Shown here piece after piece: positions 24,001 to 54,000 of a DNA stretch of 64,000 nucleotides. The stretch spans positions 124,001 through 188,000 of the forward strand of contig NW_026859592.1 of the NCBI RefSeq assembly GCF_026571515.1, in the 5' to 3' direction. How positions within the stretch are numbered: position 1 is the first letter of the stretch; every line of letters begins with the position of its first letter. The position numbers are program-made. The DNA comes from Ruditapes philippinarum. Taxonomy: Eukaryota.

Positions 24001-27000
24001 AGAAAACAAACAAATACCTGGACAATCTTCTAACTCTCATGCTACTGTTACTAGCTGTGCTGATGGGGCGTGAGGCTCGAACTGTTTCCTGACTGTCATA
24101 GGAAGGTAACATTCCACGCTGCAAATAAACAAATATGTTTTAGCCATTACCCTGCTGAATTTGGACTTGCCCTGAAATCTAAATTCTAAATCTGGAACAG
24201 ACCATTCCAATCTTAAGAGATTTCAATAACGAAATACAAAAATGTACAAAAATTTAGCTACAAACAGCATAGAGCATGGTAAGACTGCAAAGATCATGTC
24301 TAGACTGGCTTGGTTCTATACTGGTGTCAAAGGCTAATTTAATGCTTTCTGTTCTAGGCAGTTAAAGGTTAAAGACATGACATGGTAACCAGAGCTATAA
24401 TGGGAACATATAACAAGAGCTGTCACAAGAGACAGCGAAGCTCGACTAATAAAATACTGGACGCAGTAAGGAGGACAAAACTATGAAAGAAAAATCAATT
24501 ATGTATAATTATGTATTAAGTTACAGTAAAAAAACATTTGTTAACATAAATTCCAAGATCAAGGGGAATAATTCTAGAAATAGTCACACTAGAGTTATGA
24601 ACCTTGTCACACAACATGTGTGTAATGATAAGAAATATATATTTGAAGTTTGAAGTAGATACCTTAAAAAGTAAAGAAGTTATAATATTTCTTTAAGAAA
24701 ATCCTAAGTTCAAAGAGAGATAAATCTGTAAATATTGCTTCAAGAGTTATGAACATTGTCACATAAAATGTAATTGATGATAAGGAATAAGTATTTGAAG
24801 TTTGAGGTAGATACCTTTAAATCTAAAAAAGTTATAGTAAAAAATAATATTTTTCAAGGAAAATTCTAAGTTCAAGGGGAGTTAAATCTGAATATATTGG
24901 TGCTAGAGTTATGAACCTTGTCACATAAAGATGGGGATGATGATAAGGTACATATAATTTGAAGTATGAGCTTGATCCCTTAACAAATAAAGAAGTAACA
25001 GTAAAAAAATAGTATTTTTTGAGGAAAATTCTAAGTTCAAGGGGGAGATAAATCTGAAAATATTTGGTGCTAGAGTTATGAACCTTGTCACATAAGATGG
25101 GGATGATGTTAAGGTACATAAATATTTTGAAGTATGAGGTTGACCTTAAACAAATAAAGAAGTAAAAGTAAAAAATAGTATTTTTTGAGGAAAATTCTAA
25201 GCTCAAGGGGAGATAAATCTGAAAATATTCGGTGCTAGAGTTATGAACCTTGTCACATAAGATGGGGATGATGATAAGGTAACATATATTTGAAGTATGA
25301 GGTTGATCCCTTAACAAATAAAGAAGTAACAGTAAAAAATAATATTTTTTGAGGAAAATTCTAAGTTCAAAGGGAGATAAATCTGAAAATATTGGAGCTA
25401 GAGTTATGAACCTTGTCACATAAGATGTGGTTGATGATAAGGAACATACATTTTAAGTTTGAAGTTGATACCTTAAGAAATAACAAAGTTATAGTGAAAA
25501 ATATTTTACTGCACCAAAACTTTAATCTGAAATCTGGACGCGGACGCCGGGGCGAGTAGGACAGCTCTCCATATACTTCGTATAGTCGAGCTAAAAAGTG
25601 AGTCATTTAACATAATTGATGGTGTACGTAATTATTTCAGTACATCATGTTTTGCTGAATTTCTGATCCATATGTTTCATGTAAATTTGAACAGAATAAA
25701 TGCCAGTGATGAAGCAGTTATTTATGTAGTCATGACAGATCTTCTATATTTAGACTTGTATTTTTATAATGGTGTATATATTATTCAGTTAATAAGAACT
25801 AGAACAAGATCGTCATTTACCTTGGCATAATATTCTGTGCCTGTGCCTTCTGAACGAACTGTTGCATTGCTGCCTTTTCTGTAAGGGAGGTCATCCTCTT
25901 CTAACTGAACAGTTCTAAAATAAGATAGACAACTCTAATTATCATATACATAAATCAAACAAGTAAAGTCTCACTGAAACAAGATAGACAACTCTTGATA
26001 TATTTCATTTTCTTTTTTGGTTGGTTTTTACAACGCATTATCACAGTATAGGTCATATGGCGACTTCCTCACATGAAAGAATCCAAAGTCCCTCTTAAGA
26101 TTTGAACCCACAGTGGTGAGGGGCAACTGGTTTTAAGTCAACAAACTTAACCACTTGGCCACCGAGCAGCAACTTGTGGTAAATATAGTTATATACCAAT
26201 CAAACAAGAAAAGTAATTTTAGTGTTGAGTTAACACATTGTCACATACAACATTCTGAAACAAGAGAAACCATTCCTTGATTTATTTATATGAATAATAC
26301 CCCTGTGCAAAACAAGTCAGTCAATTTTGATCAGATACAAGTATTCTTGCAAAGCTCATTTTCAGGAAATGTGTATAAAACCTACTGTATAATATATAGT
26401 AGATATGAAATGTAAATCATATTTTATTTTGAGATACAACAAACTGAAATGCAGCAGTTCAGCTGCAGCAACAAAACTTATCACCTTATTGTAACATTCT
26501 GTCTAAAAGATATGTAATCTTATAGATGCACAATTCTTATAGATTACCTGTATAAGAATTCATCAAATTCTCATTTAAGGATTCCCTTGGGCTAGAAGCA
26601 GCAGCTTTGCAAATTCATATCTAGAAATTGTTAACACCTTAAAACTTTCTCACAGGTTTAATATTGATGCAAGTAATGCAAATGTAAGTGATGTAAATTA
26701 AACAAGTGCAATGTTCAAATGAATGCAATGCCCCTAGGTGACCTTGACCTTTGACCTTGTGACCTGTAAATGGGTATAGTAGGTAGAGCTTATCCAGGTC
26801 CATACTCCTGTGAAATTTGACGGCTCTATGTGGAAAGACTACCATGTTATGGTCAAGGTTAAATTTTTGTGATGTGAAACGAAAAACGGACTGACCACAA
26901 ACAATATGCCATCCCTCTCTATTGACAAAGGGTGGGGATAATACCTAGTGTTATTTGTTTTTTAACACTTAAAAATAAATACAGGCACTGTTACTGTTTT

Positions 27001-51000: not shown

Positions 51001-54000
51001 ATCTCTCCAGACTTTAACATCAATGGAGGAAAACTGAGAAAATTTAGCAATAGTATTCCAGGCATGTAAACACCCTGATTTACCGAGAAATTTGACTCCT
51101 TCTGGTAAAAGTATTTTCAACCTATCAAACTTTCAGGGAATATCTTGAACAAAGAGATTCTCCTTTTCATCCTGTTTTATTTTAGTTAATAAGATTGGCT
51201 GAAATTTTTGATATAATATGGCTATTAATGATTGATAATTCAAAAGTTTAAGGAAATCATGAAAGTACATTATGCATGACTGATTTCAAACAATTTAAGG
51301 ATGATACTATATGTATATTTAGATCTTATTCAATTAATGCCATTAACACTTTGTCACTTAAATTTCTGAGACAATAATACTGAATGTGCCTAACAAAATT
51401 GCATCTTCGGAACTTAGATCATAACCCGACATGACAAAATAAGCATACGGTACCTTACAACAGACTAACTGGTGTCCTGGGCCTTATCTCACAATTACGT
51501 TACATTTAAATTAATCCAGGTAGATACAATTTACTTGGTTTTACTTCTAATGACCATTTGTTCCACCCCTTTCTCCTATTTCATATTCCTTATATTTTTA
51601 ATGAAAAGTTAAAACGTACTGTGTATTATCTTAAATAACAAAACAGAGGGCCCCAAATGCACTGTATTGGCAGTGGTTACATTGAATCTGAAAATATATT
51701 CTGACTCAGTTCCAAGGTCATTTTTATCTCAGTAATCAGACAGGGCAAACAAAGAAGCCTGTCAATGTTATCTCTAGGTTCAGTTCAAGTTAAAAATCTG
51801 CTAATGCACAGAATATTGATTCATTATAAAATGTCTTCATTGATAATGATCAATGTACCTCATCAATAATTGATTTCTTTATTCGCAAACATACCTCAGA
51901 TAGTTTACACGCATTCATGTTTTTATTTTGAAATTATCCAATAATTCCACAACTTAACGTCCACTAATCCCCACACACTTTCATTTTAAAACTAGCTTAA
52001 TTGTATAAAGGATACGGCTTATACCTGCGTCTTTTCATCTCTAGATTAAAAGAACATCTTACTTTATGTATATGCAAGTTCAAATGTTTTACTTTCATTA
52101 TTGAGAATTCATGTATACTGTACAATAATGGTTCTTGTAAAAATTCACAAAGAATTTGGATAGTTATCAAAATCATGTTGAAACTAATATGCCACTCAGA
52201 ATAACTTGGCAGATGAAAACACAAAAATGTCATAATTATACTGTCAAAGGAAGACAAATCAAATCTTCATTTGAAAAATAAATCTATGATATTGAAAACA
52301 AAATGAAAATTCTGTCTTTAAATAAAATTCACAACACAAAAAAAAATCTGTCATTTTATATGTTTTCATACATTCATGAATTATACAAAGTTTCCTCTAC
52401 ATGAACAAGGATTCCCAAATTCCCAATAAATCAACCTGTGAAATTAAACACCTTTGCAAAATTTATACAAATTTCATTAGGATGCATTTACAGATTCATT
52501 GATTTCCAATATCCGTAAAAACATATTACTGTCTGGTTAACTTTTGAAAAATAAATTTCATGCATTTAATTTGGTATAAGCACAATTGCACAGGTAAACA
52601 AGTAACATACTGAATAGTAACCATTACAATATAAAAACAATAAAAACAATACAGGTGTTCTTCTTTTCTCCATATATTTTCACCTGATATCTAATGTTAG
52701 TTTAGTTGTCAATTTATCATCATTGGTCTTTATTTTAAATAAAACTGTCTTTGAAAAGAGCTGAAATTCAAAATAGTTCACTCATTCCTAATACAACAGT
52801 GTTTTGACTTTCTGAATGTCTCAGTTTGTCATTACTGTATTGCCACTGTACTGTACGTAATAGTGTTACCAGATCTGGCAATACACTAACAATAAACATG
52901 ACACAAGACGGACAGGATATCAAGTTTTGTGGTGATTTCATAAGGAAGTATCGCAATAGTTTCCTTCTTAAATAAAACTTTCTGAATTCAGTACTTAGAT
53001 TAATATATTGCCAACACCTGGTACATTTTAAAATCTACTTCTAACTACTCAACACAGGTAGATCTTTCAATATATTACCATTTCACATTAATACATTCAT
53101 AGAAATTTTTGTATGTTCATTTCACTGCATAATAGATACATTAATTCACACCATTACTGTATTAACACAAGTAATATTCACTACAGAAATATAAAATCCA
53201 CTTACCATGAATATTAACAAACAACATTTGCTAAATGTACACTATAAAATCAAATTTCAATTTAATATCAAAATAACTTTCAGTTTAGCATGTACAATTT
53301 TGCAATTAAAAACCTCCAGTTTATCCCAGTGGCAAAAACAGCTTGTTAAACTCAACAACTATCAATATCTCCTCAAATATCCAGGCTAATGCATTGAACC
53401 TGATATTAATCATAAACATTGATTTCCTGCACTTTTCTCAACAAATCCTAAAGCAGGAAAATAAAACACAATTTAACTCCCTTTAAACTGAAAAAACATT
53501 TTCATGTGATAACACCTTTCTTGTTGTATATCATAAAAGTGTTTTAAAAACCACTTCTAATGATTTTTAATTTTTGTCACTACCGAAACATGCATAGGTT
53601 GACTAAAAGACAAATTACAAAAAAAAACTAGGTAAAAAAAACTAACCACTTGACATATAAAAGTTAGACAAGTTTATTTCTATACAATAAACTGTATATA
53701 TAATTTTCAAGATTTCCATCACAGCTGCCTTGTGTCTGTTCTCTAAACAATTCCTGCCAACCAATTGCTGTTGTTTACTTTTACTATAACTGTTCAGACT
53801 TTATACACTCTAAGATATACAATTTTCTACATAACATCTTATTTCTATATTATTGCTTCTAATATTTTCTCAAAAAAGAAAAATCTTAATGATTTCTTCA
53901 CCATTTGATATTAAAAAACAGATATTTCACAATACATTTGAAAGTTAAAATTTCATGGTATTATTCTATAGTTCTACGAGTATGAAAGCTGAAGTTATTT

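What the first reader, a model, noticed from the sequence alone, without database searches (positions are those of the whole stretch)
25821..52233. Apparent array of alternative first exons feeding one PX-SH3-RhoGAP
Seen: the first shared exon (25914) has no ATG and needs a phase-2 donor. At least five separate minus-strand segments run ATG-open frame-AG|GT in phase 2: 27452-27552 (33 aa), 32327-32352, 36083-36093, 41981-42018 (donor gtgagt) and 48806-48891 (28 aa). Weaker ones are at 44489-44496, 51895-51914 and 52025-52233. Each would complete an Arg codon with the shared exon. Known: vertebrate ARHGAP32 makes long (PX-RICS) and short (RICS) isoforms with different N-termini. Inference: a multi-promoter, variable N-terminus cassette spread over 25 kb. 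Caveat: short ATG-to-donor matches also arise by chance here (I saw several in phase 0 or 1), so the short candidates are weak individually.
Basis: partly seen in the sequence, partly recalled or inferred. Interest (0 to 1): 0.72.

Follow-up and report, generated by a model that had tools for sequence, protein, structure and literature searches.

The report
Alternative start exons of a clam RhoGAP gene
A clam gene for a large PX-SH3-RhoGAP signalling protein carries several separate small start exons that can each join the same second exon, which is ordinary alternative-promoter biology already annotated in related clams.

Summary

Independent evidence supports three of the eight.
- 48806-48891 is the start of the database's own 2808-aa model of this gene (P0001).
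- 41981-42018, really starting at ATG 42033, matches the N-terminus of a Dreissena polymorpha isoform (E 1.5e-12).
- 27452-27552 matches the N-termini of four more distant relatives (E 4e-7 to 4e-4).

With the split Arg codon it is identical to the Mercenaria mercenaria isoform X3 start.

Five candidates have no support: 32327, 36083, 44489, 51895 and 52025.

The exons are not copies of one another, so this is a multi-start gene rather than a duplicated exon array. No transcript or promoter data could be consulted.

The parts
56509..56528 (-). Start exon A. It encodes MASCAR plus AG. Context is ggcaacATGG and the donor is |gtgcat.
   Evidence: tblastn of the Mercenaria mercenaria isoform X3 N-terminus (MASCARR) hits 56528..56508 at 100%, E 4.6e-5 in a 38-kb search space. 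The Mactra antiquata start MASCTR hits the same place at E 0.009. The best reversed-query control was E 0.006. Sequence read. An in-frame TGA lies 6 codons upstream of the ATG.
48806..48891 (-). Start exon E. It encodes MSIRFLNDCFPRKEPVDGFEDVHIESCD plus AG, with donor |gtaaca.
   Evidence: It is identical to residues 1-29 of P0001, the 2808-aa database protein that maps exon by exon onto the window. None of the 12 relatives examined has a similar N-terminus. The evidence behind the model is unknown. An in-frame stop lies 1 codon upstream.
41981..42033 (-). Start exon B. It encodes MDLVKMGALLFPFCNNV plus AG, with donor |gtgagt. Another in-frame ATG lies at 42048.
   Evidence: The Dreissena polymorpha isoform X2 N-terminus MDFMKMGALLFPFCNNFR aligns to 42033..41986 at 87.5% over 16 aa, E 1.5e-12. 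Sequence read.
27452..27552 (-). Start exon D. It encodes MFEVQNLYRSPQTRRKNLDSCRRPPRNYTWFDL plus AG, with donor |gtattg. It lies 1.5 kb upstream of the shared exon.
   Evidence: The N-termini of P0024, P0022, P0011 and P0032 (MF[DHN]VQNIYGTPQ...RPRRMTLIDLR) align to 27552..27451 with E 3.9e-7, 8.9e-6, 2.6e-4 and 3.6e-4. 13 of 33 columns are invariant over the 5 sequences. An in-frame TAG lies 2 codons upstream.
25821..25914 (-). Shared exon 2. Its first base completes the split codon. It then encodes TVQLEEDDLPYRKGSNATVRSEGTGTEYYAK and has no in-frame ATG.
   Evidence: It matches residues 29-60 of P0001 and is conserved in all 13 proteins that hold the motif.
24018..24118 (-). Exon 3 (RGMLPSYDSQETVRASRPISTASNSSMRVRRLS plus AG). 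It restores the frame between the shared exon and the next exon.
   Evidence: Frame enumeration and P0001 residues 61-93.
21622..21707 (-). Exon 4 (..LTDDNTRFPKLQDCAHFHYDTVDISSLQ).
19104..19325 (-). Exon 5, the N-terminal part of the divergent PX domain.
   Evidence: Pfam PX E 0.009, 17 bits, below the 21.6 cut-off. Sorting nexin-25 PX structures at E 0.024. It is 100% identical to P0001 residues 123-196.
3..18425 (-). The remaining 14 mapped exons: the rest of PX, SH3, RhoGAP, and the giant last exon 3-4163, which runs off the window.
   Evidence: Exon-by-exon map of P0001 residues 196-2171. Pfam on P0001 gives RhoGAP E 2.1e-44 and SH3 E 4e-7. Window exons alone also hit RhoGAP.
32327..32352 (-). 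Unsupported.
   Evidence: The pattern is present. No match to any of the relatives' N-termini at E <= 0.5.
36083..36093 (-). Unresolved, probably chance.
   Evidence: The only link is the tripeptide MKT shared with the Mya arenaria isoform X2 start MSMKTLNR, at tblastn E 2.6.
44489..44550 (-). Its frame is open back to an ATG at 44550. Unsupported.
51895..51914 (-). Unsupported.
52025..52233 (-). It is hydrophobic and AT-rich. Unsupported.

Best explanation
The window holds the 5' two-thirds of a heterodont-bivalve (venerid-like) orthologue of ARHGAP32, a gene for a protein of about 2800 aa with divergent PX, SH3 and RhoGAP domains, on the minus strand. Its second exon (25821-25914) has no start codon and accepts a phase-2 donor.

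At least three conserved ATG-bearing 5' exons lie 1.5 to 30.6 kb upstream: A at 56509-56528, B at 41981-42033 and D at 27452-27552. A fourth, E at 48806-48891, is used by an existing gene model. Each ends in AG|GT. Each has an in-frame stop just upstream of its ATG, so none can continue an upstream reading frame. They are therefore mutually exclusive translation-start exons.

Whichever is transcribed and spliced to 25914 gives the same protein body a different leader of 7 to 34 residues ending in Arg. The most likely mechanism is one transcription start region per leader exon (alternative promoters). Because a first exon has only a donor, splicing goes straight to the common acceptor.

What is shown: the exons, their frames, phase and splice dinucleotides, their conservation in relatives' annotated proteins, and the lack of similarity between them. 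What is inferred: that each junction is made in this species, that each exon has its own promoter, and that the leaders change localisation or regulation. The conserved Cys next to basic residues in type A, and the hydrophobic GALLFPFC stretch in type B, suggest membrane or lipid anchoring. That suggestion rests on recalled motif knowledge, not on any call.
For: Gene identity.
- P0001 is 100% identical to the PX exon. Residues 1-2171 map onto 19 collinear window exons.
- Pfam finds RhoGAP and SH3.
- The nearest named relatives are from Mercenaria mercenaria, Mactra antiquata (named 'Rho GTPase-activating protein 32'), Mya arenaria and Dreissena polymorpha. They are 86-95% identical over the first 700 aa.

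Leader exons.
- Of 154 stored proteins, 13 hold the shared-exon motif, and they show several kinds of N-terminus. MA[AST]C-type appears in 5, MFxVQNIY-type in 4, MGALLFPFC-type in 1 and the own-model type in 1. Two others, MSMKTLNR and MLIMTEEG, appear once each.
- Three of these kinds are found in the window's DNA on the correct strand. Each has an ATG at the homologous Met and ends at an AG|GT donor in phase 2. tblastn did not use either property.
- E-values run from 1.5e-12 to 3.6e-4, against 0.006 for the best reversed-query control.
- In 11 of the 13 proteins the residue at the junction is Arg, as predicted from AG|A.
- Stops lie 6, 1, 12 and 2 codons upstream of the four ATGs.

Age of the exons.
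- On a tree of 12 full-length relatives, the MA.C-type is scattered over the 9-row clade that includes the window's protein. The MFxVQN-type representatives sit on the other side.
- Yet the window's DNA keeps an intact MFxVQN exon. So does P0024, a 357-aa fragment left out of the tree, which is closest to P0010 inside the 9-row clade.
- Both types are therefore old and have been kept side by side.

The relatives' records are labelled isoform X2 or X3, and their 90% clusters hold 5-7 member sequences.
Against: - No transcript, junction-read, CAGE or promoter evidence for this species could be consulted.
- Exon E rests on a single model of unknown provenance and is not conserved in the 12 relatives examined.
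- Exon A is only 20 nt. Its match is short (7 aa, E 4.6e-5), although it is exact and has the correct donor and phase.
- Only one representative isoform per relative could be seen.
- The 'shorter' protein search found only 5 hits: genomic read-through ORFs and short gene-model fragments, with no spliced alternative leader.
- CpG observed/expected shows no promoter-like signal at any of the four exons. The values in the 1-kb windows that hold them are 0.13-0.61, against a regional mean of 0.33.
- The leader exons could be second exons behind non-coding first exons. In that case they would be chosen by splicing rather than by promoter.
Confidence: 0.78

Rival explanations
1. There is a single true first exon. 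All the other ATG-open-AG|GT segments are chance occurrences in AT-rich intron or intergenic DNA.
For: The pattern occurs at chance frequency in every phase and on both strands. The only database model of this gene uses one start exon.
Against: Three different segments match three different kinds of annotated N-terminus from other species far better than the controls do. Each has the Met, the donor and the phase in the right place. Neutral sequence would not keep 14 of 16 residues against Dreissena. That protein is only 88% identical to the window's protein even in the conserved first 700 aa.
Confidence: 0.07
2. The leader exons are real but are chosen by alternative splicing behind one shared promoter and a non-coding first exon, which may lie beyond 56.6 kb or outside the window. 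They would then be mutually exclusive second exons rather than a multi-promoter set.
For: An AG preceded by a T-rich run (ttatattttag|) lies about 70 nt upstream of the exon A ATG. No promoter-like CpG signal sits at the exons. Stops upstream of each ATG are compatible with 5'-UTR sequence.
Against: Nothing here speaks directly against it. Leader exons spread over 29 kb, with unrelated sequences, are more often promoter-linked. That is general knowledge, not something tested here. The CpG-richer stretch at 61.5-64 kb lies inside a repeat structure.
Confidence: 0.2
3. This is a tandemly duplicated variable-exon array of the protocadherin/UGT1A kind, which is the reader's 'cassette' idea taken literally.
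For: Several 5' exons share one acceptor and one phase.
Against: None of the nine exons tested shares detectable similarity with another. Self-BLAST found 0 bases of any candidate in within-window repeats. Local alignment of exon +/- 150 bp gave z <= 3.3, apart from two candidates whose flanks physically overlap. The exons encode 7-34 residues, not domains.
Confidence: 0.02

Closest known systems
Annotated isoforms of the orthologous gene in other heterodont bivalves: Mercenaria mercenaria 'serine/arginine repetitive matrix protein 2-like isoform X3', Mya arenaria LOC128233978 isoform X2, Dreissena polymorpha LOC127882166 isoform X2, and Mactra antiquata 'Rho GTPase-activating protein 32'
   Same: The protein body is the same, 86-95% identical over the first 700 aa. 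The shared second exon and the junction residue are the same. The Mercenaria/Mactra and Dreissena leader peptides are encoded in the window at 56509-56528 and 41981-42033.
   Different: The one database model of the window's own gene uses a leader (48806-48891) that none of these representatives shows. The Mya leader MSMKTLNR has no convincing counterpart in the window; the best hits are E 0.047 inside a dispersed repeat and E 2.6 at 36083-36093. I could not list the other isoforms of these genes.
Vertebrate ARHGAP32 long/short isoforms (PX-RICS and RICS)
   Same: The gene family and the domain order PX-SH3-RhoGAP are the same, and one gene gives more than one N-terminus. [quoted passage not shown]
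   Different: The vertebrate switch adds or removes the whole PX-SH3 part. Here every leader exon lies upstream of the PX exons, so all products keep PX-SH3-GAP and differ only in 7-34 leader residues. No short RICS-like start was looked for in this window.
Multi-promoter genes whose alternative first exons give N-terminal proteoforms. Examples recalled from general knowledge are the PDE4 and NRG1 isoform families. The general topic is reviewed in PMC13082882, of which I saw only the search listing and the start of the abstract.
   Same: Unrelated, short, ATG-bearing first exons are spread over tens of kb. Each is spliced to a common second exon and gives a unique N-terminal peptide on a constant body.
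   Different: Promoter use and any targeting role of the leaders are untested here.
Variable-first-exon arrays (clustered protocadherins, UGT1A; recalled)
   Same: Many 5' exons are joined to constant exons through one acceptor.
   Different: Those arrays are tandem paralogues that encode whole domains. Here the exons are not similar to each other and are tiny.

Membership tests
ARHGAP32/33-type PX-SH3-RhoGAP proteins | RhoGAP domain | tested here: met
   Pfam PF00620 on window exons alone gives E 2.6e-11 and 1e-17. On P0001 it gives E 2.1e-44 at residues 378-523.
ARHGAP32/33-type PX-SH3-RhoGAP proteins | SH3 domain between PX and GAP | tested here: met
   SH3_9, SH3_1 and SH3_2 hit P0001 residues 253-306 with E 4e-7 to 1.5e-6. 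The same is seen in 11 of 11 relatives.
ARHGAP32/33-type PX-SH3-RhoGAP proteins | N-terminal PX domain | tested here: inconclusive
   The window's PX exon scores 17 bits against the 21.6 cut-off, E 0.009. The whole of P0001 shows no PX at E <= 0.01. Of 11 relatives, 2 exceed the cut-off (P0016 at 23.7 bits, P0022 at 24.6 bits) and 1 is below it. Sorting nexin-25 PX structures match at E 0.024. This is a divergent PX at the homologous position. No fold was predicted.
ARHGAP32/33-type PX-SH3-RhoGAP proteins | Orthology to vertebrate ARHGAP32 rather than another RhoGAP | not tested
   The only support is a source's name for the Mactra protein and my recollection of the vertebrate motif around FPK..ECAHFHY. 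No vertebrate sequence was fetched or compared.
Genes with alternative first (translation-start) exons | Two or more ATG-bearing 5' exons that cannot continue an upstream ORF | tested here: met
   There are four such exons, with in-frame stops 6, 1, 12 and 2 codons upstream of the ATG. Three are conserved in relatives' N-termini.
Genes with alternative first (translation-start) exons | All join one common acceptor in the same phase | tested here: met
   All end in AG|GT in phase 2 and fit acceptor 25914. Relatives' proteins carry each leader directly in front of the shared-exon sequence.
Genes with alternative first (translation-start) exons | Each junction observed in transcripts of this species | not testable with these tools
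   No RNA data were available. The 'shorter' protein search gave only genomic read-through ORFs and short gene-model fragments.
Genes with alternative first (translation-start) exons | A separate transcription start or promoter per exon | not testable with these tools
   CpG observed/expected shows nothing distinctive at the exons. No eukaryotic promoter tool or CAGE data were available.
Tandem variable-exon arrays (protocadherin/UGT1A type) | Variable exons are paralogous tandem duplicates | tested here: not met
   Self-BLAST found 0 of the 9 exons in within-window repeats. Pairwise local alignments of the flanked exons do not exceed the shuffles, apart from two physically overlapping flanks.

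The most novel reading that the evidence does not exclude
The leaders may form an old, conserved 'address code' for a synaptic-type RhoGAP. At least three mutually exclusive N-terminal peptides would have been kept side by side since before the split of the lineages on the tree. These are the MA-S/T-C-x-R type, the GALLFPFC type and the MFxVQN(I/L)Y..PQ type. Each would confer a different lipidation or membrane-targeting behaviour on the same PX-SH3-GAP body. Further leaders, such as the own-model exon E and the Mya and P0010 types, would be gained and lost lineage by lineage.
Probability: 0.25. Interest if true: 0.5.

Novelty: new member of a known kind. Interest (0 to 1): 0.3.

Why it matters
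For annotation, the one available model of this gene shows a single start. Gene models for this species probably under-report N-terminal isoforms.

For biology, unrelated leader peptides kept side by side over long evolutionary distances suggest that the N-terminus of this RhoGAP is functionally tuned, for example by tissue, by compartment or by lipid anchoring. That could be tested with simple fusion constructs.

Alternative first exons are common in large neuronal signalling genes, and the orthologues already carry isoform labels, so this is a refinement rather than a surprise.

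Tried and rejected
- the 31-aa shared exon was too short for the homologue search (minimum 40). I did not resend that exon to the tool.
- the PX-exon ORF with lengths 'longer' found nothing. That mode stops at 2000 aa and the family is 2500-3000 aa, so the result carries no information.
Whether one species' records hold two or more of the leader types stayed unchecked.
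- the 'shorter' search gave 5 hits. Four are genomic ORFs that read through into intron. One (P0155) is a two-exon fragment with read-through upstream. None shows a spliced alternative leader.
- CpG observed/expected as a promoter proxy shows no peak at the four exons. The rise at 61.5-64 kb coincides with a repeat structure, so I do not read it as a promoter.
- the idea that the exons are duplicates of each other is rejected. This includes the tempting ..ESCD-R (exon E) against MASCAR-R (exon A) resemblance, which scored z -0.2.
- The link between 36083-36093 (MKT-R) and the Mya start MSMKTLNR is only a tripeptide, E 2.6. It remains unresolved and is probably chance.
- The P0010-type leader MLIMTEEG has no counterpart in the window (best E about 0.1, plus strand).
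Window sequence went to searches exon by exon.
- Not available: eukaryotic genome DNA, RNA-seq, and the closed collections metagenome contigs and viral contigs.
- Not used: structure prediction, complex prediction and the protein atlas.
- The window is not taken for human. Its nearest named relatives are bivalves.

Full report
WHAT THE WINDOW IS

The window is AT-rich (about 32% G+C) and has no N. On the minus strand it carries most of a very large gene.

A search with the single PX-domain exon (19104-19325) against 1.84 billion representative proteins returned a 2808-aa protein, P0001, that is 100% identical. Exact 5-mer chaining maps P0001 residues 1-2171 onto 19 collinear minus-strand exons between 48891 and 3. 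The rest of the protein lies beyond the window's start.

Pfam finds RhoGAP (E 2.1e-44) and SH3 (E 4e-7) in P0001. It also finds RhoGAP in the window's exons taken alone.

The PX domain is divergent.
- The window's exon scores 17 bits against a cut-off of 21.6.
- Two of 11 relatives exceed the cut-off.
- Sorting nexin-25 PX structures match at E 0.024.

The closest named relatives are bivalve proteins: Mercenaria mercenaria, Mactra antiquata (named Rho GTPase-activating protein 32 by its source), Mya arenaria and Dreissena polymorpha. They are 95, 91, 87 and 88% identical to P0001 over the first 700 residues. The window therefore comes from a venerid-like heterodont bivalve. I do not take it for human.

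THE OBSERVATION

Each has an ATG, an open frame, a last dinucleotide AG followed by GT, and a length of 2 mod 3. Joined to A at 25914, each would give an Arg codon.

The shared exon 25821-25914 has no in-frame ATG. Its reading frame continues through exon 24018-24118 into 21622-21707 and then the PX exon.

The pattern is not enriched.
- The plus strand of 25915-64000 has 30, 20 and 27 by phase 2, 0 and 1.
- First-order Markov sequences give 24.0 +/- 5.0 phase-2 cases, and 31 of 200 reach 29.
- Six of the 29 sit in a 145-bp tandem repeat.

INDEPENDENT EVIDENCE

I compared the N-termini of annotated relatives with the window. What precedes that motif falls into a few kinds.

| Kind of N-terminus | Proteins |
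|---|---|
| MASCARR / MASCTRK / MAACTR / ..MATCTR / ..MASCTGR | Mercenaria X3, Mactra, P0007, P0016, P0009 |
| MF[DHN]VQNIYGTPQ...RPRRMTLIDLR | P0022, P0024, P0032, P0011 |
| MDFMKMGALLFPFCNNFR | Dreissena X2 |
| MSMKTLNR | Mya X2 |
| MLIMTEEG | P0010 |
| MSIRFLNDCFPRKEPVDGFEDVHIESCDR | P0001 |

In 11 of the 13 the junction residue is Arg.

I then ran tblastn of these leaders against window 25915-64000, a 38-kb search space with PAM30.

| Leader | Window hit (minus strand) | Identity | E-value |
|---|---|---|---|
| P0001 | 48891..48805 | 100% | 6.5e-30 |
| Dreissena X2 | 42033..41986 | 87.5% over 16 aa | 1.5e-12 |
| P0024 | 27552..27451 | about 49% | 3.9e-7 |
| P0022 | 27552..27451 | about 44% | 8.9e-6 |
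| P0011 | 27552..27451 | about 44% | 2.6e-4 |
| P0032 | 27552..27451 | about 44% | 3.6e-4 |
| Mercenaria X3 | 56528..56508 | 100% over 7 aa | 4.6e-5 |
| Mactra | 56528..56511 | 5 of 6 aa | 0.009 |

The same queries reversed gave nothing better than E 0.006, and that hit lay in a repeat.

Every real hit is on the gene's strand. Each starts at an ATG aligned with the relative's Met and ends precisely at an AG|GT donor in phase 2. The search did not use these properties.

For the 27452-27552 exon, a five-sequence alignment has 13 of 33 invariant columns.

The MASCAR exon (56509-56528) has the context ggcaacATGG and the donor gtgcat.

In-frame stops lie 6, 1, 12 and 2 codons upstream of the four ATGs. 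These are therefore translation-start exons, not internal coding exons.

WHAT HAS NO SUPPORT

The candidates at 32327, 44489, 51895 and 52025 match no leader at E <= 0.5.

The candidate at 36083-36093 (MKT plus Arg) shares only a tripeptide with the Mya leader, at E 2.6. I leave it unresolved and think it probably chance.

Exon E (48806-48891) is supported only by the existing model P0001, whose evidence I cannot see. No relative examined shows it.

HOW OLD, AND WHAT KIND OF ARRANGEMENT

A maximum-likelihood tree of 12 full-length relatives used 750 residues after the leader. The 357-aa fragment P0024 was left out.
- The three MFxVQN-type representatives fall on one side.
- Nine others, including the window's protein, fall on the other side (support 93/91).
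- The MA.C type is scattered through those nine.

Yet the window's DNA holds an intact MFxVQN exon as well as the MA.C and GALLFPFC exons. P0024 is closest to P0010, which sits inside the nine (71% identity), and it starts with the MFxVQN leader too. The simplest reading is that the leader types are old and have been kept side by side.

The exons are not copies of each other.
- No candidate overlaps a within-window repeat.
- Flanked pairwise alignments do not exceed the shuffles, apart from two candidates whose flanks physically overlap.

This is therefore an ordinary multi-start gene and not a protocadherin-like duplicated array.

MECHANISM

What is shown:
- four ATG-bearing 5' exons with compatible donors and phase;
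- one acceptor without a start codon;
- conservation of three of the exons.

What is inferred: each leader exon is transcribed from its own start region and splices directly to 25914. The products have the same PX-SH3-RhoGAP body and differ in a leader of 7-34 residues.

Two other possibilities are not excluded. There may be a shared upstream non-coding exon with mutually exclusive splicing. There may also be further leader exons beyond the window.

The type A leaders all carry a Cys followed by basic residues, and type B carries a hydrophobic stretch with a Cys. From recalled knowledge of N-terminal acylation signals, this suggests different membrane targeting. Nothing here tests that.

COMPARISON WITH WHAT IS KNOWN

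Vertebrate ARHGAP32 makes PX-RICS and the shorter RICS. I read the passage in PMC4799364 and otherwise saw only search listings. That switch removes PX-SH3, whereas the clam leaders all keep it.

N-terminal proteoforms from alternative promoters are a well-described general phenomenon. For PMC13082882 I saw only the listing and the start of the abstract.

The orthologues in Mercenaria, Mya and Dreissena already carry isoform labels, and their 90% clusters hold 5-7 sequences.

I found no paper on this gene in molluscs. My three literature searches were narrow, so this is not a claim of absence.

LIMITS

Window sequence was sent exon by exon. The database protein P0001 was used by id with region limits.
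- The 'longer' search could not reach proteins above 2000 aa.
- The 'shorter' search gave only genomic ORF fragments.
- No eukaryotic genome DNA or RNA data were available.
- Paper supplements were not needed.

VERDICT

One of them lies outside the stated range, and five of the eight listed candidates are unsupported.

This is a new member of a known kind, of modest interest (0.3). It is useful mainly as an annotation refinement and as a pointer to conserved N-terminal leader peptides worth a localisation test.

Noticed in passing
window 29484-30404 and 57636-58355: There are arrays of a 145-bp tandem repeat, 4.9-5.9 copies each. The array at 29484-30343 is followed by a (GGAC)14 microsatellite at 30349-30404. 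Together they give up to 11 matching copies within the window. Six of the chance phase-2 ATG..AG|GT hits (29348-29996; five of them read MIGLIE[QL]MIPIVFG..) lie in the first array.
   Followed up: partly
window about 12119-12590, 46971-47570 and 47689-48194: A dispersed repeat of about 500-600 bp occurs in three copies inside introns of the gene. All copies share an ORF-like stretch (RVTNAEKHLTLSQSIEKLQHFEIN..). It is probably a transposable-element fragment.
   Followed up: no
window 25004-25503: A 164-bp unit is repeated 3 times at 90% identity in the intron immediately 3' of the shared exon. It produces the long, meaningless minus-strand ORF 24832-25452.
   Followed up: no
window 59751-60591 and 63177-64000; 62054-63096: Two direct repeats that are 98-100% identical lie 3.4 kb apart, and the second runs off the window. 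They enclose a large inverted repeat whose arms reach 158 nt at 78-98% complementarity. The inverted repeat carries 10-bp CGAAAGTGAG arrays at 62087-62125 and, as the reverse complement, at 63035-63063. CpG observed/expected rises to 0.8-1.3 here against 0.33 elsewhere. It looks like a mobile element and is not shown to be a promoter.
   Followed up: partly
window about 1557-2054 (giant last exon, minus strand): The disordered tail contains internal Ser/Gln/Arg-rich repeats (SPQSRQK, NQSFSSS, ASPPSRQ). This probably explains why one source names the Mercenaria orthologue 'serine/arginine repetitive matrix protein 2-like'.
   Followed up: no
P0001 against window 3-4184: The database model is 99.57% rather than 100% identical over the last exon in tblastn (1394 aa aligned). 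It was therefore probably predicted from another haplotype or individual of the same species.
   Followed up: no
P0011 residues 1-18 (unnamed relative): In this relative the MFxVQN-type leader starts with Leu and is preceded by 17 further residues (MEGQATEVDTASVNGQR). There the homologous exon may be longer, or it may be an internal exon. In the window a TAG lies 2 codons upstream of the ATG and rules this out.
   Followed up: partly
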